From assembly GCA_963669415.2 (NCBI GenBank), contig CAXXPS010000001.1:499614-563613 (forward strand): a DNA stretch of 64,000 nucleotides, in the 5' to 3' direction. The DNA is from Rhizobiaceae bacterium (GTDB lineage: Bacteria > Pseudomonadota > Alphaproteobacteria > Rhizobiales > Rhizobiaceae). Under the pieces are notes generated by a model that saw only the letters and a list, made by a program, of their open reading frames with translations, made no database searches and had not been told where the DNA came from. Made by a program: the position numbers and the translations under genes. This document shows, one piece after another, positions 11,011 to 35,561 of this stretch (positions are counted from its first letter, which is position 1; each line of letters begins with the position of its first letter).

Positions 11011-11276
11011 TTGGCGGAGCGAGAGCGATTCCTGCCTTGTTCCGGCATCCTGTTCAGTACCACAAATTTGGCTACCGCCCTTCAAGGTCAAAGTGGCTGC
11101 ACGCTCATTTCAACCATGGACTGAGACCCGCTGCGCTGGCGACATGTCGCGAGCAGTAATCCAACCCGGATTGGGCCAAATAAAGCCAGGAGTTGGTCAA
11201 TTTCAGAAAGGTGTAATTAACGGCCACAAACTCGACAGCATGAAAATGTCCGCCGGAAGCCGTGCAAACCTGTCTT

Positions 11277-18106: not shown

Positions 18107-18407
18107 ATTTTTGCGGCGCGAGCATTCGTTCACTTCGAATGTTCAACGTCACCTGGGGTAATCAGCGAACGCTATTCTTCCTTTGGCAGCAAGACGCGGC
18201 TGAAAATGATGCCGCTTTTCCGCGCCAAGGTTGCATCTGGTCGCCGCTTCACCGCGGATTCCTGCAATTATCTTAGCGATTGCCGATAAATCCCGTTCAC
18301 GCGGTTGTGAACAGGTCAATTTCCATATTAGAATTCTCTTGTCTGGCAGAGGGGCTCGCTGTTGCCAGATAATAGAATGTAACAACAATAATAAAGTGGA
18401 GGAATAC

Positions 18408-20333
18408 ATGGTGTATCGAATAAAATCGAAAAAATTGCAAAACTTCATTGCTACAACAATACTCGCGACCGGAGTTATGGCGACGGGCGCCGGTGGCCAC
18501 GACAGCCCCAATGACGGCCACATTCCTCCCAATGTCAATTACGGTTTTGAAGTGGTCGCCCGCGACTTGTTGGCGGGAGTAGCCGACGGCCTCTATACCG
18601 ATGTCTGGTCGCATGACGGCTTCGCCTATATCGGCACTTTTCAGGAGCCCAACTGCACTGACGCCGGCGTTTTCATCGTCGACATTGAACAAGCGATTGC
18701 CAATTACCCGGCGATGGAAGGTGCGACCGTTGCCGAGATTCGTTCGGCGCCCAATACCCGCATCAACGATGTCAAAGTGCACCGGGTCGGCGACAAGGAT
18801 GTGCTGATCACGACGCAGGAACCATGCGGAAAAGACATTCCCGGCTGGGCCGTGGCCGACGCAAATGCCAATGGTAACGGACCTGCCTTTCAGATCGGAC
18901 AGGGCGGCATCAGCCTTTACGATGTCACCGATCCGTCAAAGCCGAAGGCATTGAAGAAGAACTATCTGGAATTTGAAGGTGTTCACAATACGTTTCCGTG
19001 GAGTTGGGAGGGCAAGAGCTATCTGATCGCCACGGCCGATACGTTCGATTTCTTCGATACCGTGTTCATCGATATCTCCAAGCCGCAATCACCGACATTG
19101 CTAAAGATTACCGGTGCTCTGGACTGGGTTCCTCAGGGTTTGAACCTGGATCAGCTGGAGACCGGATCATCGGGTGGCATTTTCAATCACGATGTCTGGG
19201 TCAATGAAATTGATGGTGTTCCGACCGCTGTGGTCTCCTACTGGGACGCAGGCTTCGTCACGCTGGACGTGTCCGATCCGGCCAATCCTTTGTTCCTCGA
19301 TGACAGCACGTATCCTGCGACGAATATCAGCGGTCAGCCCTATGAAGGCAACGCCCATGCGGCGGTCTTCGGTAGCAACGGGGACTATATCTTCGGCGGG
19401 GACGAGGACTTTTCCGACAGCAGCTTCGGGATTTCCCACAATGGAAATTCGTATCCGGCCGGCGTGGCCCTCTTTGGCCCGCCATCAATCGGGCTTTCGG
19501 GTGATGAAGTTGTCTGGACAGGCGGCGAAGGCTGCTCGGTCGGCGAAGTGCCTGCAGCAACCGGCGCCAACCAGGTCGCGCTTATCCAGCGTGGGTCGTG
19601 CTTCTTCCAGGATAAGGCGGAAAGCGCAGAGGCGCAGGGCTATGTCGGCTATATCGTCGCCAACGACGCCGCCCGGGGCGATGCGCTGATCAACATGTCG
19701 GGTTCCGGCAGTGGTGTTCCTGTGACCATTCCCGGCGTCTTTGTCGGGTTTTCGGCAGGTGAAGCAATGAAGGCGTTTGGAGTTGCTCCGGTCAGCGCAG
19801 GTTCAGTGTACGATGGGTGGGGATACCTTCACATCATCAACAACACCGGTTCGACGATCACCGTTCCTTCAATGGGCATGGCCAACCCCGCAACCATGGA
19901 TGTGCCGACCGGGCATCATCTGGGGTACTATGCGCCGGCTGAAACCGTTGAAGATACCGGCCTTGGCACCGATTTTGGCGACCTGACGATGCACAACATC
20001 GAGGCCGATCCGCTGACGCAGGACGTCGTGCCGTCGTTTGACGCCGGACCGCGCATGTTCATCTCGTGGTATTCGCTCGGCATGCGCGCTGTCGAATACC
20101 GCCCTGGCCATTATCATACCAACAGCAATGGCGAAGGCAGCTATTCACAGAACGTCCACGAGGTTGGCCGGTTCATCGCTGAAGAGGGATCGAACTTCTG
20201 GGGCATTCACATTGACGAGGACGAGGACGGGGATCAGATCATCCTGGCGTCCGACCGCAACACCGGTCTTTGGATTTTCAAGTTCCAGTGCACCGACGAA
20301 GTCACGGGCGAGCCCTTCTATTGCCGGCGCTAG
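18408..20333 (+). CDS. secreted LVIVD-repeat beta-propeller protein with inserted PA (protease-associated) domain
   Basis: A GGAGGA RBS precedes ATG 18408, and a signal-like N-terminus follows. LVIVD-type repeats are present (GVFIVDIEQ, ISLYDVTDPSKPKAL, TVFIDISKPQSPTLL, FVTLDVSDPANPLFL). The PA-like block is ALIQRGSCFFQDKAESAEAQGYVGYIVAND...IPGVFVG. Confidence 0.7.
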   Translation: MVYRIKSKKLQNFIATTILATGVMATGAGGHDSPNDGHIPPNVNYGFEVVARDLLAGVADGLYTDVWSHDGFAYIGTFQEPNCTDAGVFIVDIEQAIANYPAMEGATVAEIRSAPNTRINDVKVHRVGDKDVLITTQEPCGKDIPGWAVADANANGNGPAFQIGQGGISLYDVTDPSKPKALKKNYLEFEGVHNTFPWSWEGKSYLIATADTFDFFDTVFIDISKPQSPTLLKITGALDWVPQGLNLDQLETGSSGGIFNHDVWVNEIDGVPTAVVSYWDAGFVTLDVSDPANPLFLDDSTYPATNISGQPYEGNAHAAVFGSNGDYIFGGDEDFSDSSFGISHNGNSYPAGVALFGPPSIGLSGDEVVWTGGEGCSVGEVPAATGANQVALIQRGSCFFQDKAESAEAQGYVGYIVANDAARGDALINMSGSGSGVPVTIPGVFVGFSAGEAMKAFGVAPVSAGSVYDGWGYLHIINNTGSTITVPSMGMANPATMDVPTGHHLGYYAPAETVEDTGLGTDFGDLTMHNIEADPLTQDVVPSFDAGPRMFISWYSLGMRAVEYRPGHYHTNSNGEGSYSQNVHEVGRFIAEEGSNFWGIHIDEDEDGDQIILASDRNTGLWIFKFQCTDEVTGEPFYCRR

Positions 20334-20492
20334 GGCAAAAGTGACTTTGCGAAAACCGTGACGCCGGAGACCCGGCGGATGCGAACAGTAAATGCAGGGG
20401 ACCGGTCTTGCCCGGCCCCCTGCTCACCGTCACCGATGAACGGGCGCCGTAGGTGGCGCCAAGCGAAAGATGGAGACCCTGCCGTGAGCGGC

Positions 20493-21500
20493 ATGTTCAG
20501 GCCCGTATTTTTGGTAGCCCTCATTCCGGTGTTCTTGTTGCAGGGGCTGCCGCCTGCCACCGCGCAGACGGACGGTGAGACCGCCCGCATGCTGTCGGTA
20601 GAATATGTGGACGGCAGGTTGAGCGTAGAGGCCCGCAACGTACCGCTTGGCCAAGTGCTTCGCGCGGTCGGCGGCAAAGCCGGTTTTGAAACACGTCAGG
20701 CATCCGGCATCGAAAAACCATTCACGGGCCAGTTCACTGGACTGAGCCTGTCTGAGGGATTGTCACGCATACTCGGCAAATCGGCTTCATTTGTCGTCAA
20801 ATATGGCGAAGGTGGAAAACCGCAGCGGCTTGTCATTCTGGCAATGCCGGAAGGCCAGACGCAGGCAGATATCGTGGTGGCAGGCACAAAAGCGATACCG
20901 GAGCAAACAACTGACGGACCGGTGTCGAGCGATAGCCGCGACTGGATCAAGTCTCAACTGAACGCAAATGAGCCGGACGCTCGAATTGCTGCGATCTGGC
21001 AATTGCGCGGCCTGCAACCGGATGAGGCCACCACACTTGCAACAGATGCGTTGCGGGTGGAGACGGATGCCCGGGTCCGCGCCCGTATTGCGTCCCTGCT
21101 CGGGCAGATCGGTGGTCCGGAGGTGATCCACGCACTCATTGATCTGCTGACCGACCCGTCGGTCCGCGTTCAACAGTCGGCAGCCTTAGCCCTGGCAGCC
21201 TCCGGCAGCGAGGCAGCTGACCACGCGCTTGGCCTTGCGCTTTTGCGCAAGCTTGGCGACGAGCAACTGCGCATCATGATCGTGGATCTGCTTGCCGGCC
21301 GGAGATCGCCAATTGCACTAGACTATTTGAAGACCGTCTCACTCAGCCTGGGTGGCCCGGTGGCGGAAAAGGCTCAGGCTTACGTGTCCGGACATTTACC
21401 GGTCCGCAGTTTCAGCGCCGCAGATACCGGTGATGCAGAAACCGTCGACCAGCCGGTTCGCTCGCAATTTCTCACCCTGGCTGCGCCGCTCGCCAAATAG
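20493..21500 (+). CDS. secreted HEAT-repeat protein with STN-like N-terminal module
   Basis: Signal peptide MFRPVFLVALIPVFLLQGLPPATAQ. It has an STN-like segment VEARNVPLGQVLRAVGGKAGF and PBS-lyase/HEAT-like repeats (ARIAAIWQLRG, VRARIASLLGQIGGPEVIHALIDLLTDPSVRVQQSAALALA). GTG 20484 is an alternative start. Confidence 0.6.
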   Translation: MFRPVFLVALIPVFLLQGLPPATAQTDGETARMLSVEYVDGRLSVEARNVPLGQVLRAVGGKAGFETRQASGIEKPFTGQFTGLSLSEGLSRILGKSASFVVKYGEGGKPQRLVILAMPEGQTQADIVVAGTKAIPEQTTDGPVSSDSRDWIKSQLNANEPDARIAAIWQLRGLQPDEATTLATDALRVETDARVRARIASLLGQIGGPEVIHALIDLLTDPSVRVQQSAALALAASGSEAADHALGLALLRKLGDEQLRIMIVDLLAGRRSPIALDYLKTVSLSLGGPVAEKAQAYVSGHLPVRSFSAADTGDAETVDQPVRSQFLTLAAPLAK

Positions 21501-21623
21501 GCCTTGCAAAGCAGGAGCCATCCACACAGACAGAAGCGGTCCACGGCCGGACGTTGCTCATTGAGTGATTGAGCGCCCGTTATAAACTGTTACTATCCTG
21601 ATCCCAGGCGGCGTGAATAGAGA

Positions 21624-23114
21624 ATGTCTGCGCACAACAATCAAACATACGAAGTTGCAATAATTGGACTGGGGCCGGTCGGAGCGGCGCTGGCGAACCT
21701 GCTGGGTCAAATGGGTATCTCGACTGTGGTGTTGGAACTTGCCACCGGGATCAATCAACTGCCGCGCGCGGTGGCATTCGACGACGAGGTAATGCGGATA
21801 TATCAGGCCATGGGACTGTCGGCGGAAATCGGCGAAATCTCAGAAGTTGGTGAAGGTGCGAAATTTGTCGACAGTGCCGGAAAAACACTCGTTCACTGGC
21901 AGCGCCCGATGGAGAAGTCGCCAAACGGCTGGTATCTGAACTATCGGTTCAATCAACCGGATCTAGAACGCACGTTGCGCGATGGGACGACACGGCATCC
22001 GTCCGTGACCTTGAAGCCGGGCTGCGAGGTGATTGGCCTCCAAGACAAGGGGAACGAGGTACATGTCACTTATGTTGATGACGGCGAGGAGCGTTCATTG
22101 GGCGCAGCCTATGTTGTTGGTTGTGATGGAGGCCGGTCTTTTACCAGAGCCCGAATAGGAGCGAAATTCGAAGACCTCGGCTTCCATGAGGAATGGTTGA
22201 TTGTGGATCTGTTGTTGCCGGAACGCGAAGCGGAGCCCGACCGCTACACTTATCATTATTGCGGGTTTTCCCGGATGGGCAGCAAGGTATTTGTTGGTAG
22301 CAAGCGCAAGCGGTGGGAATTTCGCCTGAACGATACCGACGACCGCGAGACTGTTCGGTCACCCGAAACGATCTGGAAGATCCTGGAGCCATGGATCAGC
22401 CCGACTGAAGCCAAATTTGAACGCACCGCGCTTTACACCTTTCACTCAACGATTGCCGATAATTGGCGCAATGGCCGCATTCTCTTGGCTGGCGACGCTG
22501 CCCATCAAACGCCGCCTTTCATGGCACAAGGCATGTGCGCGGGTATCCGGGATGCCTCGAATTTGGCGTGGAAGCTGGAGCGGGTGCTTCGCGGCGCATC
22601 GCCAGATCAACTGTTGAACACCTATCAAAACGAACGCTCGCCGCATGTGCGCGAATATATCAGGCTCACCATTGAATTCGGCAAGCTCATCAACAGCACC
22701 GCCAAGTCGCTGACATTGGGCAATCCAACGGATATCGGCGAGGGGAGGCAGGCCATTTCGCAGTTGCGGCCGAAACTGGGGGCCGGACTATCCGCCGGAG
22801 ATACGTCGCATCGCGGGCGCATGTTGCCTCAATTCGCTCTCAGCGACGGACGCCTTTTGGATGATGTGGCCGGATATCGCCCCGCATTGGTACTTGCAAG
22901 CCGGGCAGCCGAGGAATTCGACGAAAGCCTTTGGTCGGGCCGCCCGGAGACAGGTGTCGAAATCGTCGGCAATCCCGGTCCTGAGCTGATTTCCTGGCTT
23001 AGGGAAGCCGGCGCGGTGGCGGTGTTGATCGGGGCTGACCGGAATATTTTGGGATCAGCACGGACAATTGAAGAAATCTCAGTATTGCACCCATCCAGAT
23101 GGAGATATTCCTGA
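21624..23114 (+). CDS. FAD-dependent aromatic-ring monooxygenase (MhpA-like hydroxylase family)
   Basis: It has the GxGxxG motif VAIIGLGPVGAALAN, the motif GCDGGRS, and the FAD-ribityl motif LAGDAAHQTPPFMAQGMCAGIRDA. 496 aa. Confidence 0.85.
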   Translation: MSAHNNQTYEVAIIGLGPVGAALANLLGQMGISTVVLELATGINQLPRAVAFDDEVMRIYQAMGLSAEIGEISEVGEGAKFVDSAGKTLVHWQRPMEKSPNGWYLNYRFNQPDLERTLRDGTTRHPSVTLKPGCEVIGLQDKGNEVHVTYVDDGEERSLGAAYVVGCDGGRSFTRARIGAKFEDLGFHEEWLIVDLLLPEREAEPDRYTYHYCGFSRMGSKVFVGSKRKRWEFRLNDTDDRETVRSPETIWKILEPWISPTEAKFERTALYTFHSTIADNWRNGRILLAGDAAHQTPPFMAQGMCAGIRDASNLAWKLERVLRGASPDQLLNTYQNERSPHVREYIRLTIEFGKLINSTAKSLTLGNPTDIGEGRQAISQLRPKLGAGLSAGDTSHRGRMLPQFALSDGRLLDDVAGYRPALVLASRAAEEFDESLWSGRPETGVEIVGNPGPELISWLREAGAVAVLIGADRNILGSARTIEEISVLHPSRWRYS

Positions 23115-23224
23115 GCATCCAGGCCCTCTACTGGCTGCAAGCTTCACGAGCGTCCATTTCTGATGCAATTCAGGCGTCAATCCTTTGAAAAGGCAAGTTC
23201 AACATTTTGGCTCTGATCTGGCCT

Positions 23225-24124
23225 TTAGCCCGGCAGTTGCCCGCCGTTTTCCAGCCAGTCAGCGTCAACATCAGGCAGGAGTTCCTCCATCCTTGACCGG
23301 TACAGAGCCAGTTCCTCATCATCAAGTTTGCCAACCCATTTTTTGCTGCTGGCGCTGTCATAGAAAGCAGCAGGATCTTTGAAAGTTGACGAACTTTGGA
23401 CGCCATGGTCCAGCGCTTTTTGAGCGTTCGCCTGGACTTGTTCAAACTGCAGGCTGTCTGAAATCTTGCTCAGAAGACCCGTGTCATAGTGATATCCCAA
23501 CAAATTGGAGGCCCTTGTCGTTTGCCCGGGTAAATCTCGCCGCATATCCGCATAGTGAAAAAAGTGGATATTTGGCAGCTGGCTCCAGGCCTTAAAGGTC
23601 TTGTAATGGTGAACAATCGAACCAAGGGTGACGCCATCCGCCATCAGGTCTGGTTTCACGTCCTCGAGAAAAAAGGAGAAGGAAACAGAAGGCGCCTCAC
23701 GCATCCTTGGATCAAGCATTTCCAACTTCAGATTTTGCGCATGTTTACGCATCGAGAAATGGGCATCAATCGGATGACGATAGACAACGAAGTAAGTGCA
23801 GGACGGACTATATGAAATGCCATCGAGCGGTGTGTGGGTCTTGATGCATCGCCTGTGAGTCTGAGAGGCAAACAATGATGAGATTGCCTCTTGATCGCGA
23901 AATCCTGGATCAAGCCAGACAGAGATATCGTCAATTCCGACATCCATTCCCGGCTTGCCGAAGATCAGGGACATGACCAAAGATTGCATCCAAGTGGTGC
24001 CACATTTCGGTGGCGTGGCGACAATCACATCATTGGCACGCAAGTCGAACCGATCCCACGCTCGTGAGTCCGTCAACGTGGAAATGTACTGCATCGATTT
24101 TGTTGGATGATTTTGACCAGACAT
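23225..24124 (-). CDS. PAPS-dependent sulfotransferase (Sulfotransfer_1-like)
   Basis: It has the 5'-PSB loop PPKCGTTWMQS, the KTHTPL motif, and the 3'-PB-like VVYRHPIDAHFS motif. 299 aa. Confidence 0.8.
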   Translation of the reverse strand: MSGQNHPTKSMQYISTLTDSRAWDRFDLRANDVIVATPPKCGTTWMQSLVMSLIFGKPGMDVGIDDISVWLDPGFRDQEAISSLFASQTHRRCIKTHTPLDGISYSPSCTYFVVYRHPIDAHFSMRKHAQNLKLEMLDPRMREAPSVSFSFFLEDVKPDLMADGVTLGSIVHHYKTFKAWSQLPNIHFFHYADMRRDLPGQTTRASNLLGYHYDTGLLSKISDSLQFEQVQANAQKALDHGVQSSSTFKDPAAFYDSASSKKWVGKLDDEELALYRSRMEELLPDVDADWLENGGQLPG

Positions 24125-24239
24125 GACAAACGAAATTCCTTATCCCTGAAAATCGGTCTCTCACCACGATAATCGGTGCGGCGTTAATTCCAAGCGAGAG
24201 ATTAATGGTTCCTGACCCCAGGGATGTCCGCTGCTCAGA

Positions 24240-25364
24240 TCACTTCTTTGCAAACAGCCTCTTCACCCGCTCGTAAGCCGGGGAGGTTACATCCTGGATG
24301 ATCTGCAATTCCTGCTCCGAAAATGACGGCTTGTAGTATTGCTGCGCGTGAATGTTGTTTTCGGCCCAGTCGACCATTTCGTTATCGTGACCCAGTCCGC
24401 ATCTGGAAACGATCATACGGCAATAGTCTGCGGGATTGGCGCACAGCGCCTCATAGGAAAGCAGGGTCGTCTGTTCGCCTATGCCGGCAGAATTCTCGAC
24501 GACACCGGCGATGTGATTGTGGATCATCGACCAGTACAATGCCCAGCCCCTGACCTCATCGCCATCTGACCAATGCCTGATTATTTCTGCGGTCTGATCC
24601 TGATCGATGTTGATCGGGCTGCGATCGAGGCCAAACTCGTAATGTCCGATCTGTGCCAGATAGAGGCGGGCATCGGGCGATTGCTGTTGCCCCTTGGCAA
24701 ACAGTTTGTGTTGCTTCATCGACGAAGCTATATGCATTGCCGGATCGCGGACCGGGATGACAAAGCGGCCGCGGGGGAACAGCTTGTGCAGATAGCCAAT
24801 TCTGGCAATGTGGTAATTGCCTTTGGCGAGATAGCGCGACCGGTCCCGCACCATCAGCAGCTTTGCCATGTGCCTCTTGTAAAAGCGTTCAAACTCGTCA
24901 TTCGATGTTTCATCATCCATGACATTCGATGTTGAAGCGTCATGGCAGTCTGAAAAGAAATGCATCCATAGCGGTTCTTCCATCGCTTCAGGACTTTCCG
25001 CCGAGACCATCAAGCCGTCCTTGTGCGAGCGTTCACCGAGCTCCGACGGTTTTCTTGCGGCCAGACCGACAAAGCGGTTCCACCAGTAGGGTGTGAATAC
25101 AAAGGGATAGTCGAGATAGCGCTGGCTTGCCGTATCGGGATGACGGGAAAGCATCTCCAGCAATACGGTCGTACCGGACCGTGCCAGACCGCAGACAAAA
25201 ACCGGTTGGGAGATGTCGATGGTGTCGATCTGCTCATCAAGAAACCGGCTTTCAAGCGAAGCGAGTTTTGCCAGCGCGTTGCCGTGACGGGCCAGAAGTC
25301 GCGAACCGAACGCGTTCAATCGCGGGACATCGAAAATGGTTTCCTGTGCAGCAGTCTTTGCCAT
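24240..25364 (-). CDS. sulfotransferase family protein (Sulfotransfer_3-like)
   Basis: It has the P-loop-like GLARSGTTVLLEML motif and a later PVRDPAMHIASS motif. 374 aa. Confidence 0.7.
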   Translation of the reverse strand: MAKTAAQETIFDVPRLNAFGSRLLARHGNALAKLASLESRFLDEQIDTIDISQPVFVCGLARSGTTVLLEMLSRHPDTASQRYLDYPFVFTPYWWNRFVGLAARKPSELGERSHKDGLMVSAESPEAMEEPLWMHFFSDCHDASTSNVMDDETSNDEFERFYKRHMAKLLMVRDRSRYLAKGNYHIARIGYLHKLFPRGRFVIPVRDPAMHIASSMKQHKLFAKGQQQSPDARLYLAQIGHYEFGLDRSPINIDQDQTAEIIRHWSDGDEVRGWALYWSMIHNHIAGVVENSAGIGEQTTLLSYEALCANPADYCRMIVSRCGLGHDNEMVDWAENNIHAQQYYKPSFSEQELQIIQDVTSPAYERVKRLFAKK

Positions 25365-25389
25365 GTCGTAGCCTGTTTCAGTTGTCCGG

Positions 25390-26157
25390 TTACTTGATCC
25401 GCAAAACGAACTTCATGCCGAGAGAAGCTAACAACAAAGCCATGAAGAACGGCAGCGCCCATTGATGGGGAAAGACGACGTGCTCGGCAAACAATGCACG
25501 CGGCGCGGTTTCGATCACCAATGTGTCGACCGGCGTTCCGGCGGGAAGTGCGCCTGCATTTGCTCCGAACAGCGACTTCATCATGCCGGGTGCGGCAGCA
25601 AGCCCCGGTGAAGATCGATGTGTAATTTCAAAAATCAGATTTCCACTGACATCGGTGATCGGCAGTTTTTCACCTTCATCCGGCCAGTTGATCAACCAAC
25701 CGGCAGCCAGTTTTTGACCACTTTCGATGTTGATGGATTCGGGCTTTTCTACCAGAATCGCAGCCACGGAATTGGGTTCGGGCTTGGAAAGCGCGTAGTT
25801 TGCCTCGACCCATATGGCGAGAAAAATGACCGGAAGCGCCGAGATCAGCGCCGGCAGCAGCGAAATCCCCAAACGTTTTCCGCCGAGCTTAAGCGACTGT
25901 TTGACCAGGCCGCGATAACCGGGCTCGGATACATCGATCGAATTGAGCTCTTGCCGGATTGATTGAATATCTGCAGCAAGTTCGTTCAGTCGCGCCTGCG
26001 CGGAAATTCGCCGATAGATCGCCATGGAGCAGAGCCCGGCCAGAATGCCCCAGAAAACCAGCCTTGCCCAAACCGGCAGGAACGAAAGAGTTGAATCAAC
26101 CGAAGAAAACAACGGGTTGAATGCACCGAAAACCGAGAATTGCTCGAAATAACTCAT
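25390..26157 (-). CDS. membrane protein of unknown function
   Basis: 255 aa with about 3-4 hydrophobic helices. Its start overlaps the upstream stop in an ATGA arrangement at 26154-26157. Confidence 0.5.
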   Translation of the reverse strand: MSYFEQFSVFGAFNPLFSSVDSTLSFLPVWARLVFWGILAGLCSMAIYRRISAQARLNELAADIQSIRQELNSIDVSEPGYRGLVKQSLKLGGKRLGISLLPALISALPVIFLAIWVEANYALSKPEPNSVAAILVEKPESINIESGQKLAAGWLINWPDEGEKLPITDVSGNLIFEITHRSSPGLAAAPGMMKSLFGANAGALPAGTPVDTLVIETAPRALFAEHVVFPHQWALPFFMALLLASLGMKFVLRIK

Positions 26158-27809
26158 TGGCTTGTTTCCGCCATCTGGTCACCGGCTTCGGTGCCGGCCC
26201 CAATGAGTTTCCCCGAAAAGAAATCGATTGGAACACGCGTCATTTCCAACAGATCGGAGGTCCGGTCGTTGTCGGGACCGTAGCGTCTGGTCGGGCGCCA
26301 TTCCCAAACCAGTTTTCCCGATCTGTCGAACTCCAGGGCTCGGGCACTTTGACTTGAAGAAATCAGGCGGTTGCCATTTGGCAGTATGTCGACCGCGCCA
26401 TAAACGTAACTCGAGAGATTGAGGCCATTGGCACGATCTGCGATCCACTTGTAGTCTTGGGTCAGGGGATCCCATTCAACGACCCGGGATGCGCGGTTTC
26501 GTCCACCGGAGTTATCGTACAACAATATCGTTCCATGATTTGTTAGTATCGGTTCATGCTGCCTGACCCAATTGCCCGACGCAGCCCAGGTGATTTTTCG
26601 GGAAACGGGATCCAGCAAGGCGATCAAATTGAGGCTGCGAAGGGAGACCAGAATGTCTCCTTCCTTGGCAAATGGCAGACCGCGGGCCTGGGCGCCTGTC
26701 ACATAGTTTGCGGTGTTCATGTGATACGGATCGCCGGCATCATTGTTGTGGGCAATAACTGTCAGATGACTGGCGTAGGCGGTGCCTTCGAAAGCGGCGG
26801 CGATGCCAATTCGGTCAATTTCTGTGCCATCCGGCGAAAGAATGGCGACGCCCTCGTCGAGGTAGGGTACTTTTGCTTCAGGGGCGAATGCCGGCGGCTG
26901 GTGGCTGATCTCCTGATAGAGCGTGATGATGCGGCCATCCGGCGCAACATCGATGGAATGATGATAGTGGTCCGGTCGAGCCCAAACGATTCTGGAATTC
27001 CAGTCGAGCTTCACAAGCGCAACGCCATATGGCGTTGTACGAAAATTGTCCAAAATTAGTAGCAAACTGCCGTCACTCAGCGGCTTTATTCGCCGCCAGT
27101 ACATTGCTCTTGTATCGCCGGTGAATGGTTTGCCGGCTGCGGCATATGCTCTGGTGATCGCAGTGCGGTCCAGTTCCCAGCGGTGGATTTCATCACCTTT
27201 CATGTCGAGCAAACGGGCTGAATGCTCCATCGACGAGAGTTCGATATTGTAGCCTTCAAACGCCTTTTCGGTATCATGCACCACCACACCCGACGCCGAA
27301 GCCGGAAAGCGCTCCGGCCTCGTGTGCCGGCTCAGATTTACATCACCGATCCCGTCCAGGCCGAATTGGGCGGCGGCAATCCAGTCGTGAAAAACCTCCC
27401 GTGAGGTTTCATGCCAGCCGGCAGCCCCGAACAGCACGGCAAAGACCAGTATTGCGGTGCTGGAGCCGGATTTGCGGCGTTGTGGAACCTTCGACGCGGG
27501 CAAGGCAGCGGGGGTTGGATCGGCCTGGGTTTGAGCGCCAGCGGCAACGCCGTGGCTCTGGCGTTTCTTGCCCATTGACAGGACAGATTTGGCCGACCAG
27601 CGAATGAGCGCCCAGCTTGCCAGAAACAGGACCGAAACCAGGCCGGCGAGTGCGCCAAGAACGCTGACACCGGCTCCCGGTCCGATATAGGCATGAGCGG
27701 GCTCCGCCATCAGCAACAATGACGGTCCCGCAGCAAGCAAGGCGCCAAATTCGAGCTTTCTCAAAACTGCAACTACCTGTGATCGACCCGGTTTTGTCGG
27801 GTCATTCAA
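26154..27809 (-). CDS. membrane-anchored arylsulfotransferase-like (ASST/Arylsulfotran_2) beta-propeller protein
   Basis: The N-terminus has the AYIGPGAG helix plus a second TM helix. The C-terminus carries the motifs HHSIDVAPDGRI, DPYHMNTANYV, ILVSLRSLNLIALLD and QHEPILTNHGTILLYDN, which resemble PAPS-independent aryl-sulfate sulfotransferases. Confidence 0.55.
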   Translation of the reverse strand: MNDPTKPGRSQVVAVLRKLEFGALLAAGPSLLLMAEPAHAYIGPGAGVSVLGALAGLVSVLFLASWALIRWSAKSVLSMGKKRQSHGVAAGAQTQADPTPAALPASKVPQRRKSGSSTAILVFAVLFGAAGWHETSREVFHDWIAAAQFGLDGIGDVNLSRHTRPERFPASASGVVVHDTEKAFEGYNIELSSMEHSARLLDMKGDEIHRWELDRTAITRAYAAAGKPFTGDTRAMYWRRIKPLSDGSLLLILDNFRTTPYGVALVKLDWNSRIVWARPDHYHHSIDVAPDGRIITLYQEISHQPPAFAPEAKVPYLDEGVAILSPDGTEIDRIGIAAAFEGTAYASHLTVIAHNNDAGDPYHMNTANYVTGAQARGLPFAKEGDILVSLRSLNLIALLDPVSRKITWAASGNWVRQHEPILTNHGTILLYDNSGGRNRASRVVEWDPLTQDYKWIADRANGLNLSSYVYGAVDILPNGNRLISSSQSARALEFDRSGKLVWEWRPTRRYGPDNDRTSDLLEMTRVPIDFFSGKLIGAGTEAGDQMAETSQ

Positions 27810-27988
27810 CCGCCAAAACGTTTAATTGTCGTGAAGGCGGCGGCATCGGTGAAACGGGACCAGCGACCGCTGGCTGTCGGGGATAATCGAGACTGACCGC
27901 CTGCCGGTCCCCGCTTGCCCCGCTTCCCACCATCCCTCATAATTGGTTTTGCTAATATGATACGGGTATGTGCCCGCTGGGAGGCCTC

Positions 27989-29068
27989 ATGGTTCGTGCA
28001 TGTCTGGTTGTTATCGCGTTTTTAACACTCTGCTTGCCCGCTCAATCGCGAGTGGTTGAAAGCTTCAAGTCCGGCGGCTGGTCGGGCGACGCATATGTCA
28101 GCGACGGTACCGGACTGTTTTCTTCCTGCGCGGCGATCGCCAGATATCGCTCGGGCATTTCCATGAGCGTTGAAGTCGATTCCAACTATTCGTGGTGGAT
28201 TGGCTTTTCCTCGCCAAGCTGGACCATGACCACCGGCGAGAAGATCGGCCTTCAATACCGCATCGATCGCGGTTCCTGGCAAAGCGGTACGGCGATCGCA
28301 ATGTCGCCGCAACTTGCGCGCATGCCGATGCCGGCCGATGGCTATATTGTCCGGCGCTTTCGCCGTGGCAACGTGCTCTATGTGCGCGACAGCCAGAACT
28401 CATACCAATTCCGGCTGACCGGCACTTCGAGACTGCTGGCGCGGCTTGCGCGCTGCGTCGAGCAGAATGTCGCCCGCTACGGCAAGGGTCCGGGCCTTTC
28501 AGACGGGCCTTCTGCGGCGACCGCTGAAAAGACGCCGGTTGTTCAATCGCCCGAGCCCGCGGCAGAAACGCCGCCCGTCGATCCAAAGCTGCAGATCGAG
28601 GCCACACAGGCGCTGTTCAACCTGATGGCGGTGACCGGCCAGACAGGGCTGAAACTTGTCAACGAAGCCGACCGGCCGAAGGATCTGAAGGGGCTGCACG
28701 CCGTGGCTGGAAACGACGCGCGGACAATCGTGACGCACATCTTTGTTGAAAATGAATTTGCCAGCCAGACTGAAATCATGGCGCAGATGATTTTCGACGC
28801 GGCAAAAGGCTGCGAAGGCGATTTCTCCTCCGGCTTCAGCGCCGACGCGGTTGAGGGCGCAGACCTGTTTGCCGGCAGGTCATCCTGTGTTGCCGGTGAT
28901 GTCGAGCGGCTGGAGCGCTATGCAATTGTCGCCCGTGACAACAATAGCGCATTGGTTTTTGGCGTTGCCGAAACTTCGGTTGGTGAAGGCGGCGGCGAAG
29001 CGTCCGGCCCCGCCACAGAACTCAGCGATGACGCCTTTCACAGTGCTGTGGTGAAAATCACCGATTAG
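27989..29068 (+). CDS. secreted hypothetical protein
   Basis: A GGGAGG RBS precedes the start. It has the signal peptide MVRACLVVIAFLTLCLPAQS and a Pro/Ala-rich linker at mid-length. I recognise no family. Confidence 0.5.
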   Translation: MVRACLVVIAFLTLCLPAQSRVVESFKSGGWSGDAYVSDGTGLFSSCAAIARYRSGISMSVEVDSNYSWWIGFSSPSWTMTTGEKIGLQYRIDRGSWQSGTAIAMSPQLARMPMPADGYIVRRFRRGNVLYVRDSQNSYQFRLTGTSRLLARLARCVEQNVARYGKGPGLSDGPSAATAEKTPVVQSPEPAAETPPVDPKLQIEATQALFNLMAVTGQTGLKLVNEADRPKDLKGLHAVAGNDARTIVTHIFVENEFASQTEIMAQMIFDAAKGCEGDFSSGFSADAVEGADLFAGRSSCVAGDVERLERYAIVARDNNSALVFGVAETSVGEGGGEASGPATELSDDAFHSAVVKITD

Positions 29069-29102
29069 CAGCAATGAGCGGTCCCGCAGATCACCGGAGA
29101 TC

Positions 29103-30638
29103 CTATTTGCGGGCACCCTGAACGATGCGATCCAGCATCATGGCGCAGAACAGGATGGCAAATCCGGCAAGGATACCCTGGCCGACATTGGCGTATTGAA
29201 GCGCTTCAAGCACGTCTTCACCCAGCCCCTTGGCGCCGATCAGCGACGCTACCACAACCATCGCCAGCGACAGCATGATCGTCTGGTTGATGCCGGCGCG
29301 GATCGACGGACTGGCCAGCGGCAGATCGACCTTGGTCAGCAGATACCACTTGCTGGCGCCAAACGAGATCGCCGCCTCACGCACATGTTCGGGCACGCCG
29401 CGCAAACCCAGTACCGTGAGGCGCACCACGGGTGTGCCGCCAAAGATCATGGTCGTGACCACGGCAGCCGGTTTGCCGGTGCCGAAAAACGCGATGACGG
29501 GAATCATGAACACGAAGGCCGGCATGGTCTGCATGAAATCCATGATCGGCTGGATGAAGTTGTAAAATCGCGGCCGCCGCGCAGCATACATGCCCAGCGG
29601 AATTCCAATGGCGATCGACAGACAGGCCGCCGTGCCCAGCAGCGCCAGCGTCGTCATCGCCTTTTCCCAGAAACCCAGCAATCCGATGAATGCCAGAAAT
29701 GCTCCGGAATAAATCGCTGTCTGGTAGCCGGCTGACAACCAGGTCATCAGTACGATGAAGCTGGCCACCACGATCCAAGGCGTCTGGACAAAGATCACCT
29801 CCAGTGCATCCAGGAGCAGGCGAATGACATAGGTGATCGAATCGAACAGGGCATCGCCATTGGTGACCGCAAAGGTGAAAAACGCCTCGACCCACGAAAT
29901 GGCGGTCAGCCTGATTTCCGGCAATGTCGGAAAATCAGCCAGCAACGGGAAACTGCCGGGAAAACTGTAGTGCAGCATGGCGACAATGACGATGATGACC
30001 ATGAAGACGGCGCTGAACGCCATGTGTCGCACCGGCATTCCGGAAGGCAGTTCAGGATTGGACAGCCAGTCGGAAAACCGGGCCTCCAGCACGGTGTTGG
30101 CCACCACCGATTGTACAGCCTTGGCGATCAACAGCACGACCAGCCCGGTCAGTGCGATCCATATGCCTTGTTCGGCCAGCAGCTCGGCCTCCAGTCGGAT
30201 GTCGCCAATGGCGGCTTCCAGCGATTCCACTGTGCGCTTGTAGACATCGATCTTGTCTGAATTGTCTTCTATTGCCGCCGCCAGTTGCTGACGGCGCAAT
30301 TCCAGCGTGCCTTCAATGGAAGCGATACGTTCGCGCGCTTCCGCGGCCAGGTCACCGAACAGTCCGAGCGCGATCTGCACGAAGCCGAAGGTCTCGAGGA
30401 TCAAAAAGCCGACTGCCCATTTCCACAGGCTGCGCGCGCCAAACCAGATCGGACCGAACAGGCCGGCCATCAGGTTGAATGTCGGCGTGAATTTCGAACT
30501 GCTGCGAATGGCGTCGAACCGTTGGGCGTAATAGCCGGGGCTGGTGCGTACGAAGCGCTCGATCTCCTCGTTTTGGTTGGTGCCTGCCGTCTCGTCGCTG
30601 TTTTTGACCGGAACCAGATCGTCAATCGGACTGTTCAT
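29103..30638 (-). CDS. proW: glycine betaine/proline-type ABC transporter permease (ProW-like) with long N-terminal extension
   Basis: The C-terminal 280 aa form a typical BPD permease (EAA loop REAAISFGASKW). The N-terminal roughly 230 aa hold a DUF2628-like membrane module followed by a coiled coil. Confidence 0.8.
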   Translation of the reverse strand: MNSPIDDLVPVKNSDETAGTNQNEEIERFVRTSPGYYAQRFDAIRSSSKFTPTFNLMAGLFGPIWFGARSLWKWAVGFLILETFGFVQIALGLFGDLAAEARERIASIEGTLELRRQQLAAAIEDNSDKIDVYKRTVESLEAAIGDIRLEAELLAEQGIWIALTGLVVLLIAKAVQSVVANTVLEARFSDWLSNPELPSGMPVRHMAFSAVFMVIIVIVAMLHYSFPGSFPLLADFPTLPEIRLTAISWVEAFFTFAVTNGDALFDSITYVIRLLLDALEVIFVQTPWIVVASFIVLMTWLSAGYQTAIYSGAFLAFIGLLGFWEKAMTTLALLGTAACLSIAIGIPLGMYAARRPRFYNFIQPIMDFMQTMPAFVFMIPVIAFFGTGKPAAVVTTMIFGGTPVVRLTVLGLRGVPEHVREAAISFGASKWYLLTKVDLPLASPSIRAGINQTIMLSLAMVVVASLIGAKGLGEDVLEALQYANVGQGILAGFAILFCAMMLDRIVQGARK

Positions 30639-31687
30639 GACATTTCGGTGCCCTCGATCACCGTTTTGAGTAGGTCGCGCCGTGTGATGACCCCGACATC
30701 CGCGCCGCCATCCTCGACAATGATGGGCGCTTCCTCTTCCATTGCCAGGCTGATCAGGGCGCTGAGTGTCTCGCCTTCGTTGACGCGTTGATGCTTTTTC
30801 AGGACCTTGCCACCGCCAGCCTTGAACGCGTCGATTTTCTGCATGACGGCATGCGCACGCACCACCTTCAGCCGTGAAATACCGGCAACGAAATCGGCGA
30901 CATAGTCGTCAGCCGGATGCATGACGATTTCTTCAGCTGTGCCGATCTGCACCACGCGCCCGTCGCGCATGATCGCGATACGGTCACCGACCCGAACCGC
31001 TTCGTCCAGGTCATGGGTAATGAAGATCGTTGTTTTCTTGAGGATCTGCGACAGGTTAATGAATTCGTCCTGCAACTGCCTGCGGATCAGCGGATCAAGC
31101 GCGCTGAACGGCTCGTCCATCAGCAGCACGTCCGGATCAGCCGCGAGCGCTCGTGCCAGACCGACCCTTTGCTGCATACCGCCCGACAATTCATGGGCAA
31201 ACTTGTTGCCCCACGCACCCAGCTCAACAATATCGAGAATTTTTTCCGCCTGGCGCATGCGGTCATTCTTGTTGATCTGCCGGATTTCCAGCGGCATGGC
31301 CACGTTATCGAGAACCGAGCGGTGCGGCAGCAGGGCAAAATTCTGGAACACCATGCCGATCTTGCGGTTACGGAACTGCCGCAGCTCTTTCGGCTCGAGC
31401 CCCATGACATCCGTGCCTTCGATACGGATGCTTCCGGCCGTCGGTTCCAGTAACCTGTTGAAGTGGCGCACCAGGGTCGATTTTCCGCTGCCGGAAAGAC
31501 CCATGACGCAGAAAATCTCGCCACGGTTCACTTCAAGGCTGACATCGGCAACACCGACGACTGCATTGAACTTTGCAAGCACCTCGGCCTTGGAAAGCCC
31601 GTCCGACCTGATCGCCGACAGGGCCTCCGCAGCGTTGTCACCAAATACCTTCCACACATTGGCGACTTCAATGACTGTGTCGTTCAT
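30635..31687 (-). CDS. proV: glycine betaine/proline ABC transporter ATP-binding protein with C-terminal CBS pair
   Basis: It has Walker A GLSGSGKST, the signature LSGGMQQRVGLARAL and Walker B LLMDEPFSALD, followed by a CBS-like tail. The stop overlaps the proW start. Confidence 0.92.
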   Translation of the reverse strand: MNDTVIEVANVWKVFGDNAAEALSAIRSDGLSKAEVLAKFNAVVGVADVSLEVNRGEIFCVMGLSGSGKSTLVRHFNRLLEPTAGSIRIEGTDVMGLEPKELRQFRNRKIGMVFQNFALLPHRSVLDNVAMPLEIRQINKNDRMRQAEKILDIVELGAWGNKFAHELSGGMQQRVGLARALAADPDVLLMDEPFSALDPLIRRQLQDEFINLSQILKKTTIFITHDLDEAVRVGDRIAIMRDGRVVQIGTAEEIVMHPADDYVADFVAGISRLKVVRAHAVMQKIDAFKAGGGKVLKKHQRVNEGETLSALISLAMEEEAPIIVEDGGADVGVITRRDLLKTVIEGTEMS

Positions 31688-31824
31688 TTCATGCGCCCCG
31701 ATAGCCTTCCAGCAATGCGCTGGCCTGGCTCAATTTAGCCGGCACCAGAACCGCGCCCCATTGGTGCAGGCAGGATCGCGGCGCCGGATGAGTGGTCGGC
31801 ACCGCGGATTGCAAATTCGCGGCC

Positions 31825-32790
31825 CTACAGGCCAAGCCATGCGTCGACGCGGTCCGGATTGGCTTCAACCCATGCCTTGGCGACATCAGCCGGATCTTTT
31901 CCGTTGCCGGAAATCTCAAAGGCAAATCCGCTCACATCGTCAGCCGTCAGAGAGAACCGCTCGAAAAACTCGGCAATTGCCGGCGACCTGTCCTTCAACG
32001 TGTTTGCCCAGGCAATCTGCACGTCCTTCAGCGCATCCTTGGAAGCGACCATTGACTTGTTGAACCAGTCCGGATCGTCTGAAGGCTGGATCATCACATA
32101 TTTCGCCGGATCATAGGTCGGCTCGCTCAGCATCTGGACGTCGAACATGTACCAGATGGCGTGCGGCTTGTAGCAATAGAAGGCGTAGCCCTCGTCCTTC
32201 GCTATCGAGTCCTTCACACGCGCAGTCTTGACGCTTTCTTCGGCCCGGATCGGCTCGATGAAGTCCATTAGGCCGTAGTCACGAACCTTGACCTCATTGA
32301 CATTGGCCGAAGCCCAGCCCGGCGCACCGATCCACATCTCACCCTTGCCATTGCCGTCGCTGTCCATCTTCGCGGCAACGTCCGGCCGGCCCAGGTCAGC
32401 AATGTCGGTAATGTTGTTGGCTTCACCGAAATTCTTCGACACGCAGAAGCCCTGATTGCCCTCATACGGGTTGCTCGACAGGGTAACCGTCTTTTCGCCA
32501 TCAACATATTTCTTGGTGAAGCTTTCCTGGTTCGGAAGCCAGACATCCGGATGAACGTCGATATCGCCATTGCCCTGATGCATGGCCTGGAAGATCGTCG
32601 CGTTGTTGCCCGGCACCAATTCGGCTTCGCCGCCGATACGCATCTCGACAACGGCTTTCAACAAATGCGCAATGGCCTGTGCGCCCGTCCACGACGGGAC
32701 ACCGATATTGACCTTCTCTGCGCCAATGGCCGAGCCGGCCACCAGCGACAAGGCCGTGGCCATTGCCAGTGATTTGAGTTTCAGTTTCAT
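31825..32790 (-). CDS. proX: glycine betaine-type ABC transporter substrate-binding protein
   Basis: A GGAGGA RBS precedes ATG 32790. It has the signal peptide MKLKLKSLAMATALSLVAGSAIGA and an OpuAC/ProX-like sequence. The longer 32871 start would overlap the neighbouring gene. Confidence 0.8.
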   Translation of the reverse strand: MKLKLKSLAMATALSLVAGSAIGAEKVNIGVPSWTGAQAIAHLLKAVVEMRIGGEAELVPGNNATIFQAMHQGNGDIDVHPDVWLPNQESFTKKYVDGEKTVTLSSNPYEGNQGFCVSKNFGEANNITDIADLGRPDVAAKMDSDGNGKGEMWIGAPGWASANVNEVKVRDYGLMDFIEPIRAEESVKTARVKDSIAKDEGYAFYCYKPHAIWYMFDVQMLSEPTYDPAKYVMIQPSDDPDWFNKSMVASKDALKDVQIAWANTLKDRSPAIAEFFERFSLTADDVSGFAFEISGNGKDPADVAKAWVEANPDRVDAWLGL

Positions 32791-32833
32791 GCTTTCCTCC
32801 ATTGGATTGTCTTTCAATTTGCTTTGCGCAGAC

Positions 32834-33874: not shown

Positions 33875-33976
33875 GGGGGACCCGTGTGATTAACCGGGCA
33901 AGCGTCGCGCAAATTCGCCATTGCCGCCAATGCTATGTTTCAATAACATGATGCGTTTTCTGCATAGGATCGACTG

Positions 33977-34906: not shown

Positions 34907-34942
34907 AGCTGGAGCGTTTTCAGCGTGAAGCAATCGCGCTGC

Positions 34943-35560: not shown

Positions 35561-35561
35561 G

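What the first reader, a model, noticed from the sequence alone, without database searches (positions are those of the whole stretch)
23225..27809. Four-gene operon combining two PAPS-type sulfotransferases, an ASST-like propeller and an unknown membrane protein
All four genes are on the minus strand with a tight layout. There is a 4-nt ATGA overlap at 26154-26157, a 25-nt gap at 25365-25389, and a 115-nt gap at 24125-24239. The first product has two N-terminal TM helices, including the AYIGPGAG motif, and an arylsulfotransferase-like beta-propeller that is presumably periplasm-facing. Next comes a 255-aa polytopic protein with no family match. After that come two cytoplasmic sulfotransferases with clear PAPS-binding loops (GLARSGTT; PKCGTTW plus RHPID). 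Pairing PAPS-dependent cytoplasmic sulfation with a PAPS-independent aryl-sulfate transferase-like ectodomain suggests a pathway. It may build and then remodel a sulfated envelope or secreted molecule, such as a sulfolipid, sulfated glycan or phenolic compound. The segment looks AT-richer than its flanks, which is consistent with accessory origin. No cysDNC/PAPS-synthesis genes or glycosyltransferases are in the window.
Basis: partly seen in the sequence, partly recalled or inferred. Interest (0 to 1): 0.62.

Follow-up and report, generated by a model that had tools for sequence, protein, structure and literature searches.

The report
Widespread membrane-spanning sulfate-transfer gene module
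The four genes are real, but the conserved unit is a module found in hundreds of Proteobacteria: a cytoplasmic PAPS-type sulfotransferase, two unannotated membrane proteins, and an enzyme inferred to face outward that resembles an aryl-sulfate transferase (or, in other species, a phosphodiesterase). It probably passes sulfate groups across the inner membrane, but nothing about its function has been tested.

Summary
All the coordinates, overlaps, motifs and family calls in the finding hold. Comparative genomics changes what the unit is.

- **Core.** The conserved core is g1-g2-g3 (24240-27809, minus strand).
- **Add-on.** The second sulfotransferase (g4) and the facing FAD monooxygenase lie in a 2.75-kb indel. 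It is present in a 98% relative and absent in 87%-identical relatives and in every other lineage examined.
- **g2.** The "unknown membrane protein" belongs to a large unannotated family (1097 representative clusters). A confident AlphaFold model has no PDB fold match.
- **Usual architecture.** Most genomes have four genes: ASST-like propeller, an ~80-150-aa signal-peptide protein whose mature end is an invariant Y-[IV]-G-P-G-[AS]-G before one helix, g2, and Sulfotransfer_3. In this window the small protein is fused to the propeller's N-terminus.
- **Alternative head.** In about a third of loci a lipoprotein phosphodiesterase-family enzyme replaces the propeller. Fusions link small protein, head and g2.
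- **Catalytic residues.** The propeller keeps the catalytic His of E. coli AssT.

Best reading (about 0.4): a trans-membrane two-step sulfuryl relay, a membrane-spanning version of the Cpz8/Cpz4 logic. The carrier and the acceptor are unknown.

The parts
26154..27809 (-). g1: a fusion of the small Y-x-G-P-G-A-G membrane anchor protein with an ASST-like (Arylsulfotran_2) propeller
   Evidence: ORF; Pfam. The N-terminal ~85 aa match separate ~80-150-aa genes in 68 other loci.
27690..27764 (-). Signal-peptide-like segment (aa 16-40, LRKLEFGALLAAGPSLLLMAEPAHA) ending in A-x-A. The true start codon is uncertain: TTG at 27809, TTG at 27764, or the ATG used by other gene callers.
   Evidence: Conserved in L001/L002 upstream of the ATG. 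67 of 68 stand-alone small proteins have Ala at -1 and 61 of 68 have Ala at -3 before the Tyr.
27669..27689 (-). YIGPGAG motif, the predicted mature N-terminus
   Evidence: Y, G, P, G and G are invariant in 68 of 68 small proteins.
27603..27671 (-). Transmembrane helix 1 (aa 47-69), followed by a basic loop (9 K/R, by eye) inferred to be cytoplasmic
   Evidence: Hydropathy 2.26; sequence.
27414..27458 (-). Short second hydrophobic helix (aa 118-132), inferred to return the chain to the periplasm
   Evidence: Coordinates. An equivalent hydrophobic stretch is seen by eye in the other fused-clade members of the alignment. It falls below the 19-residue hydropathy threshold used.
26298..27077 (-). 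Arylsulfotran_2 domain (aa 245-504)
26556..26558 (-). Codon of His418, which aligns with the catalytic His436 of E. coli AssT
   Evidence: Alignment to 3ELQ; invariant in 37 of 37; role of His436 from PMC13426309.
25390..26157 (-). g2: a 3-TM protein of a large unannotated family. Inferred topology: N-terminus out, cytoplasmic helical hairpin, periplasmic beta domain, C-terminal helix.
24240..25364 (-). g3: Sulfotransfer_3, with no signal peptide or TM segment, so inferred cytoplasmic and PAPS-dependent
23225..24124 (-). g4: cytosolic-SULT-type Sulfotransfer_1. A lineage-specific add-on, not part of the conserved module.
21624..23114 (+). MhpA-like FAD monooxygenase (a phenol hydroxylase family), lying in the same indel as g4
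   Evidence: NCBIfam NF004829, 518 bits against a cut-off of 390.
21503..24252 (.). 2.75-kb indel relative to the 87%-identical relatives L001 and L002
   Evidence: blastn collinearity breaks at 21502 and 24253. No remnants remain in the relatives' ~100-bp spacer.

Best explanation
**Shown.**
- Window 24240-27809 (minus strand) carries one copy of a conserved proteobacterial module.
- The module's parts are (a) a small membrane protein with a Sec-type signal peptide and an invariant Y-[IV]-G-P-G-[AS]-G end before one helix and a basic tail, here fused to the head enzyme; (b) g2, a 3-TM protein of a new family; (c) a Sulfotransfer_3 enzyme with intact PAPS-binding motifs and no export signal; and (d) a head enzyme, here an ASST-family propeller that keeps the catalytic His and the His/His-x-Asn/Arg set. 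In other lineages the head is a lipoprotein phosphodiesterase-family enzyme.
- Gene fusions tie the small protein, the head and g2 together.

**Inferred.**
- The head faces outward.
- g3 uses PAPS to sulfate a carrier at the cytoplasmic face, most plausibly a phenolic small molecule or lipid.
- The small protein and g2 form the membrane platform that holds the head and lets the sulfated carrier reach it.
- The ASST-like head takes the sulfuryl group on His418 and passes it to an extracytoplasmic acceptor that PAPS cannot reach.
- g4 and the MhpA-like hydroxylase are a recent local addition. They may supply an extra phenolic sulfate donor.
For: **Conserved order.** ASST / small / g2 / ST3 occurs in 26 loci, small / g2 / ST3 in 8, and phosphodiesterase-head variants in about 27, out of 84 loci. 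PGAP independently calls the same four tightly packed genes on the Paroceanicella profunda plasmid pD4M1B.

**Fusions.** Small+ASST occurs in the window, L001-L003 and L088. Small+phosphodiesterase occurs in L076. Phosphodiesterase+g2 occurs in P0122, L080, L081 and L083.

**Topology.**
- The loop after g2's first helix and before its second is basic.
- The phosphodiesterase heads carry lipoboxes.
- The small protein's tail is strongly basic.
- g3 and g4 have no hydrophobic segment.

**Catalysis.**
- His418 aligns with EcAST His436.
- H283, H284, H363, N365, R391 and H418 are invariant in 37 of 37 module propellers.
- The g3 family keeps R62/G64/T66, K181, R206 and S214.

**Precedent.** Cpz8 (PAPS-dependent) followed by Cpz4 (ASST-type) is a documented two-step sulfation (PMC6731281, PMC13426309).

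**Links to sulfate activation.** A distant ASST-like gene lies directly after cysD/cysN-type genes and beside a YIDPGNG-anchored phosphodiesterase. Another lies 3 kb from an APS kinase gene.

**Expression.** RNA contigs span all junctions of the Thalassospira module.
Against: - Nothing shows that g2 and the small protein move anything. g2 has only three helices and its fold matches nothing solved.
- The alternative head is phosphodiesterase-like, not a known sulfuryl transferase.
- Six loci have small-g2-ST3 with no head nearby, and the two Halioglobus loci examined (L027, L028) have no ST3 within 10 kb.
- Charge bias does not fix the orientation of the unfused ASST-like proteins.
- No enzyme that would make a carrier is conserved in the module.
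- No donor, acceptor or product is known.
Confidence: 0.4

Rival explanations
1. All four genes form one pathway in which both PAPS sulfotransferases build a sulfated envelope or secreted molecule, and the ASST-like ectodomain then remodels it.
For: The genes share a strand and are tightly spaced. No terminator-like site lies in the g3-g4 gap on the minus strand. The four-gene layout recurs in an independent assembly of a 98% relative.
Against: g4 is absent beside the module in L001 and L002 (87% nt identity), L003, L088 and all 80 genome loci. The g4 family is a large stand-alone marine family found in unrelated contexts.
Confidence: 0.1
2. Protein tyrosine sulfation. g3 (TPST-like) sulfates the invariant Tyr of the small protein before it is inserted post-translationally. 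The outward-facing head (aryl-sulfate transferase, or an esterase in the other type) then uses or removes that sulfo-tyrosine. The module would be a switch or a single-turnover relay.
For: The g3 family's closest solved relatives are TPST1 and TPST2 (E 2.3e-9). The Tyr is invariant in 68 of 68 small proteins and sits at the predicted mature N-terminus. Tyrosine is a phenol, the substrate class of ASSTs (PMC13426309). Proteins this small can be targeted after translation (general knowledge).
Against: The match to TPST covers mainly the PAPS-binding segments. The sequence around the Tyr is not acidic. The Tyr ends up on the opposite side of the membrane from g3. Consuming one protein molecule per sulfate is costly.
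Confidence: 0.12
3. Anchor only. The small protein and g2 merely tether and stabilise an outward-facing ester-processing enzyme that scavenges or detoxifies environmental aryl sulfates or phosphoesters. g3 acts separately on cytoplasmic substrates.
For: The heads are interchangeable, and extra sulfatase-family lipoproteins are present in 26 loci. Some loci lack ST3. The physiological roles of ASSTs are unknown (PMC13426309).
Against: ST3 is adjacent in 68 of 82 loci, often with overlapping or abutting genes. The minimal loci keep ST3 and lose the head, not the reverse.
Confidence: 0.15
4. The shared chemistry is not sulfuryl transfer. The heads would act on phosphoryl groups or another group, or the complex would be a sensor.
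For: The phosphodiesterase-family heads and the sulfatase-family neighbours seem to carry Thr where sulfatases have Cys/Ser. This was judged by eye only.
Against: The ASST catalytic residues are invariant. The PAPS motifs of g3 are invariant. Distant ASST-like genes sit next to sulfate-activation genes.
Confidence: 0.08

Closest known systems
Cpz8/Cpz4 two-step sulfation in caprazamycin biosynthesis (Streptomyces sp. MK730-62F2)
   Same: A PAPS-dependent sulfotransferase and an ASST-type, PAPS-independent sulfotransferase are encoded together. Sulfate passes through a sulfated intermediate (PMC6731281, PMC13426309).
   Different: Here the two enzymes appear to sit on opposite sides of the membrane and come with two dedicated membrane proteins. 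No conserved neighbour could make a carrier (no PKS). The head can be swapped for a phosphodiesterase-family enzyme. The module is not in an antibiotic gene cluster.
E. coli AssT with DsbL/DsbI (PDB 3ELQ)
   Same: A periplasmic aryl-sulfate sulfotransferase with a catalytic histidine (His436, aligned to His418 here), encoded with dedicated accessory proteins.
   Different: The sequence relation is only distant (E 0.0019). The window protein is membrane-anchored. The accessory proteins there are a disulfide oxidase pair, not the small protein and g2. There is no PAPS sulfotransferase in that operon.
PDB 9KF4/9KF6 'Sulfotransferase' (472 aa)
   Same: The closest solved sequence to the propeller (E 1.6e-13). 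It shares the H-D, H-x-N, Q-H and LPNGN motifs.
   Different: Its identity and source could not be traced in the paper library. The alignment covers only chain residues 139-361, so what lies at its N-terminus was not seen.
Protein-tyrosine sulfotransferases TPST1/2 (PDB 5WRI, 3AP1)
   Same: The closest solved relatives of the g3 family. They share the 5'-PSB loop, the Lys, and the 3'-PB Arg/Ser segment.
   Different: The similarity is limited to short segments. g3 has a conserved ~50-aa N-terminal extension and many family-specific invariant residues. No protein substrate has been shown.
Mycobacterial sulfolipid-1 locus (Stf0, Sap, MmpL8); from memory, not tested here
   Same: A cytoplasmic sulfotransferase working with dedicated membrane proteins to place a sulfated lipid in the envelope.
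   Different: A different sulfotransferase family, an RND-type transporter, and no ASST-like or phosphodiesterase-like outer enzyme.

Membership tests
Aryl-sulfate sulfotransferase (Pfam Arylsulfotran_2 PF14269 / Arylsulfotrans PF05935) | Profile match above the curated cut-off | tested here: met
   PF14269 scores 87 bits against a cut-off of 27; PF05935 scores 28 against 24.2.
Aryl-sulfate sulfotransferase | A catalytic histidine equivalent to EcAST His436 | tested here: met
   Q-H418-E-P aligns with T-Q-H436 of 3ELQ. The residue is invariant in 37 of 37 module propellers.
Aryl-sulfate sulfotransferase | Sulfuryl-binding residues (EcAST His252, His356, Asn358, Arg374) | tested here: inconclusive
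   H283/H284, H363-x-N365 and R391 are invariant, and the motifs align to 9KF4. Equivalence to the EcAST residues rests on the pattern only; HMMER did not align that region to 3ELQ.
Aryl-sulfate sulfotransferase | Extracytoplasmic location | tested here: inconclusive
   The fused topology, the lipoprotein heads and the phosphodiesterase-g2 fusions all point outward. Charge bias in the unfused proteins is neutral.
Aryl-sulfate sulfotransferase | PAPS-independent transfer between phenolic sulfates and acceptors | not testable with these tools
   Needs an enzyme assay.
PAPS-dependent sulfotransferase, Sulfotransfer_3 (g3) | Profile match, plus the 5'-PSB loop and the 3'-PB Arg/Ser | tested here: met
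   PF13469 scores 73.8 bits against a cut-off of 27. GLARSGTT is present. R62, G64, T66, K181, R206 and S214 are invariant in 31 family members and align to the TPST motifs.
Protein-tyrosine sulfotransferase (g3) | Full-length similarity and a peptide-binding site | tested here: inconclusive
   The best PDB hits are TPST1/2 (E 2.3e-9), but only three short stretches align.
Cytosolic SULT-type Sulfotransfer_1 (g4) | Profile match; PKxGTTW loop; His in K-T-H-x-P; R-x-P-x-D | tested here: met
   PF00685 scores 90.4 bits against a cut-off of 22. The motifs are at aa 39-45, 95-99 and 116-120. PDB hits are retinol dehydratase and the SULT1/2 families.
Cpz-type two-step sulfation system | A PAPS sulfotransferase and an ASST-type enzyme encoded together | tested here: met
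   Conserved adjacency across genera.
Cpz-type two-step sulfation system | A dedicated enzyme that makes the phenolic or pyrone carrier (type III PKS) | tested here: not met
   No PKS in the window. The six recurrent neighbour families that were named include no PKS. Only this lineage has an adjacent phenol hydroxylase.
   g4 is absent in 87% relatives and in all other lineages.
   No RNA reads from the window's organism. In Thalassospira relatives, RNA contigs cover ASST / small / g2 / ST3.
Anti-phage defence systems (PADLOC) | A match to any model | tested here: not met
   No hit for g1-g4 or the small protein.

The most novel reading that the evidence does not exclude
The module is a dedicated machine for exporting activated sulfate. 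PAPS-derived sulfuryl groups are loaded in the cytoplasm onto a membrane-embedded phenolic carrier, either a phenolic lipid or the invariant N-terminal tyrosine of the small protein. They are carried across by the small-protein/g2 complex, which has a fold with no solved counterpart. They are then handed to an outward-facing histidine sulfotransferase that sulfates envelope or secreted targets. That would give bacterial ASST-family enzymes their first physiological donor pathway outside antibiotic synthesis.
Probability: 0.2. Interest if true: 0.85.

Novelty: new variant of a known kind. Interest (0 to 1): 0.66.

Why it matters
A 2026 review says the natural substrates and cellular roles of bacterial PAPS-independent aryl sulfotransferases remain poorly understood (PMC13426309). 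This module gives a concrete, conserved genetic setting in which to test them. It has a PAPS enzyme inside, an ASST-like enzyme apparently outside, and two new membrane proteins between them.

It occurs in cultured bacteria that can be worked with: Thalassospira, Paroceanicella profunda D4M1, Inquilinus limosus DSM 16000 and Modicisalibacter muralis. It also defines two unannotated protein families and a striking invariant motif.

Tried and rejected
- **g2 as a YidC/Oxa1/EMC3-like insertase.** It has the same 3-TM layout with a cytoplasmic hairpin. Foldseek of the pLDDT-94.9 model against the PDB gave nothing better than E 0.25 and TM 0.25. Not supported.
- **Defence system.** No PADLOC hit.
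- **Regulatory RNA.** No Rfam hit in the window.
- **Metagenome scan with the window's own g2 clade.** 296 pattern matches, none confirmed.
- **RNA from the window's organism.** No reads.
- **A third head type in the minimal loci.** The recurrent 430-aa upstream gene has no Pfam hit, looks cytoplasmic, and in most of those loci is separated from the module by an opposite-strand transporter gene. It is probably unrelated.
- **g4 habitually paired with a phenol hydroxylase.** Two other g4-family contexts show no such pairing.
- **Repeats or remnants at the indel borders.** None found, so the direction of the event rests on parsimony.
- **Motif in the literature.** No paper contains YVGPGAG, YIGPGAG, YIGPGSG, YIDPGTGS or YIDPGSGS.
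- **Identity of PDB 9KF4/9KF6.** Could not be found in the paper library.


Full report
**The observation.** g1 hits Arylsulfotran_2 well above Pfam's cut-off. g3 hits Sulfotransfer_3 and g4 hits Sulfotransfer_1. g2 hits nothing in Pfam or NCBIfam. The quoted motifs are present. The window is ordinary chromosome: MutS, malic enzyme, PRPP synthetase and Lgt are all there. No sulfate-activation or glycosyltransferase family turned up among the 50 larger ORFs scanned. Only g4 (GC 0.50) is clearly AT-richer than the window mean of 0.564.

**The unit is three genes here, not four.**
- Relatives at 85-87% identity (a Rhizobiaceae MAG, L001, and L002) have g1-g2-g3 followed directly by the HEAT-repeat and PA-domain genes.
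- blastn shows collinearity over 18288-21502 and 24253-36126. Window 21503-24252 is replaced there by about 100 bp with no remnants.
- That 2.75-kb piece holds g4 and a convergent MhpA-like FAD monooxygenase (NCBIfam 518 bits against a cut-off of 390).
- A 98% relative from an independent assembly has the same insertion. Independent contigs of the source runs cover the region evenly. It is therefore real, but lineage-specific.
- The g4 family is a large stand-alone family of marine Alphaproteobacteria, with 529 hits and unrelated contexts. It has all the motifs of cytosolic SULTs.
- More distant fused-type relatives at 44-52% identity again show only g1-g2-g3, although both contigs end shortly after ST3.

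**g2 is the key to the wider system.**
- The word-indexed search found only six relatives. A profile search of 1.84 billion representatives found 1097 clusters at E ≤ 1e-3 and 189 at ≤ 1e-30. Nearly all are about 250 aa.
- A genome scan with the majority clade confirmed 210 loci, which is a lower bound because a single peptide pattern was used. 80 were kept. They come from Thalassospira, Pelagibius, Inquilinus limosus, Wenzhouxiangella, Halioglobus, Modicisalibacter, Virgifigura, Oceanicella, Desulfatitalea and many MAGs.
- I clustered all ORFs of 84 loci. The recurrent families are g2 (82 loci), Sulfotransfer_3 (68), a small protein of median 98 aa (68), ASST-like propeller (36), a Phosphodiest-family protein (33) and sulfatase-family lipoproteins (26). 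Pfam confirms these assignments.
- The commonest order is ASST / small / g2 / ST3, in 26 loci. About 27 loci have a phosphodiesterase head instead, typically ordered PDE / ST3 / small / g2. Eight have only small / g2 / ST3.
- On the Paroceanicella profunda D4M1 plasmid pD4M1B, PGAP calls exactly these four genes: 'arylsulfotransferase family protein', two 'hypothetical proteins' of 82 and 239 aa, and 'sulfotransferase'. They are separated by a 1-nt overlap, a 9-nt gap and a 4-nt overlap, and are flanked by opposite-strand genes.

**The small protein and the N-terminus of g1.**
- The stand-alone small proteins have a Sec-type signal peptide (Ala at -1 in 67 of 68, Ala at -3 in 61 of 68).
- After it comes an invariant Y-[IV]-G-P-G-[AS]-G, one helix, an invariant P-x-R and a strongly basic tail.
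- They hit no Pfam or NCBIfam model above cut-off.
- The first ~85 residues of the window's g1 are this protein, fused through a basic loop and a second short helix to the propeller. The upstream residues are conserved in L001 and L002, which favours a start upstream of the ATG that other gene callers chose.
- A more distant phosphodiesterase begins MFLGYIDPGNG, followed by a helix, a basic loop and a second helix. The anchor therefore reaches beyond this module.

**Evidence for a physical complex spanning the membrane.**
- Fusions exist between small protein and ASST (the window's clade), between small protein and phosphodiesterase (L076), and between phosphodiesterase and g2 (P0122, L080, L081, L083).
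- In g2 the loop between helices 1 and 2 is basic. This puts the N-terminus and the beta domain outside, which fits a phosphodiesterase fused to its N-terminus.
- The phosphodiesterase heads have lipoboxes.
- g3 and g4 have no hydrophobic segment.
- The orientation of the unfused ASST-like proteins cannot be settled from charge bias. I infer that they face outward from the fused form and from the family's periplasmic precedent (PMC13426309).
- With a 39-sequence alignment, AlphaFold gives g2 pLDDT 94.9 and pTM 0.85: helices, a long helical hairpin, a small beta domain and a C-terminal helix. Foldseek finds no PDB match, with best E 0.25.

**The catalytic machinery is intact.**
- The propeller's Q-H418-E-P aligns with T-Q-H436 of E. 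coli AssT. His436 is the residue that is transiently sulfated there (PMC13426309).
- H283, H284, H363, N365, R391 and H418 are invariant in all 37 module propellers.
- The closest solved sequence is 9KF4/9KF6, annotated 'Sulfotransferase' (E 1.6e-13).
- The g3 family keeps the PAPS-binding residues. Its closest solved relatives are the tyrosylprotein sulfotransferases (E 2.3e-9), but the match covers only short segments.

**Expression.** No RNA from the window's organism maps to the locus. For the Thalassospira module, one RNA-seq contig of 3732 nt covers 8223-11923 of L033. The four genes lie at 8252-11862. Contigs from three other runs cross the gene junctions. This fits one transcript, with the caveat that these are assembled contigs and DNA carry-over cannot be excluded.

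**The mechanism I commit to.**
- It is a trans-membrane version of the two-step sulfation known from caprazamycin, in which the PAPS-dependent Cpz8 sulfates a pyrone and the ASST-type Cpz4 passes the sulfate on (PMC6731281).
- Here the two steps would lie on opposite sides of the inner membrane, which gives the two-step route a reason: PAPS does not reach the periplasm.
- Additional support comes from distant ASST-like genes that sit directly after cysD/cysN-type genes, or near an APS kinase gene.
- The weak points are the unknown carrier and acceptor, the phosphodiesterase-type alternative head, the loci that lack a head or lack ST3, and the absence of any evidence that g2 transports anything.
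- I put this reading at about 0.4.

**Novelty.** The enzyme families are known, and pairing a PAPS sulfotransferase with an ASST has one precedent. The rest I found described nowhere in the libraries and papers searched: the membrane-spanning architecture, the two unannotated membrane protein families, the invariant motif, the interchangeable heads, and the breadth of distribution.

Noticed in passing
window 21624-23114 (+) and 23225-24124 (-): A phenol-hydroxylase-type FAD monooxygenase (MhpA subfamily) and a cytosolic-SULT-type sulfotransferase lie tail to tail in one 2.75-kb indel next to the ASST module. Together they could make and sulfate a catechol-type donor. Two other g4-family contexts do not show this pairing.
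   Followed up: partly
L091/L092 2565-8441: In a groundwater metagenome bacterium, cysD- and cysN-type genes, a truncated ASST-like fragment and a full ASST-like gene lie in one direction. They are followed by an opposite-strand 687-aa phosphodiesterase that begins MFLGYIDPGNG. Radical SAM/SPASM and PqqD genes flank the group.
   Followed up: partly
L006 4885-6396 and the other members of ORF cluster 8 (26 loci): Sulfatase-family lipoproteins accompany the phosphodiesterase-type modules. By eye they carry T-x-P-S where sulfatases have C/S-x-P-x-R, which suggests a Thr nucleophile rather than formylglycine.
   Followed up: no
window 18231-20333 (+) and 20358-21500 (+): A PA-domain/LVIVD-repeat protein (700 aa) and a HEAT-repeat protein with an N-terminal signal-like region sit next to the module. 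They are syntenic in the close relatives only, so they are not part of the conserved module.
   Followed up: partly
window 27968-29068 (+): A 366-aa protein with a signal-like N-terminus and no family hit lies divergent from g1. It is conserved (359 aa) in the close relatives.
   Followed up: no
window 29103-30638 (-): The permease of the OpuAC-type (glycine betaine family) ABC transporter (511 aa) has an extra N-terminal region of roughly 270 residues, judged by eye, with hydrophobic segments and an apparently coiled-coil stretch ahead of the permease-like part.
   Followed up: no
window 56973-60170 (+): A 1065-aa ORF whose only family hit is a weak DyP_N match (1.4e-8). The rest is unannotated.
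   Followed up: no
window 8083-12251: Three AraC-family regulators cluster in a stretch of low GC (0.50-0.52).
   Followed up: no
whole window: The sequence is held in full only by runs labelled with one coded organism, which also has Hi-C and RNA-seq projects. The bacterium is probably an associate of a sequenced host. Marine sediment metagenomes hold 6-8% of the sampled words.
   Followed up: partly
L033 9985: The RNA-seq strain of the Thalassospira relative carries a 30-nt insertion in the spacer between the small-protein gene and g2.
   Followed up: no
L068 152-3325: A Kiloniellaceae MAG has two tandem ASST-like genes ahead of g2 and ST3.
   Followed up: no
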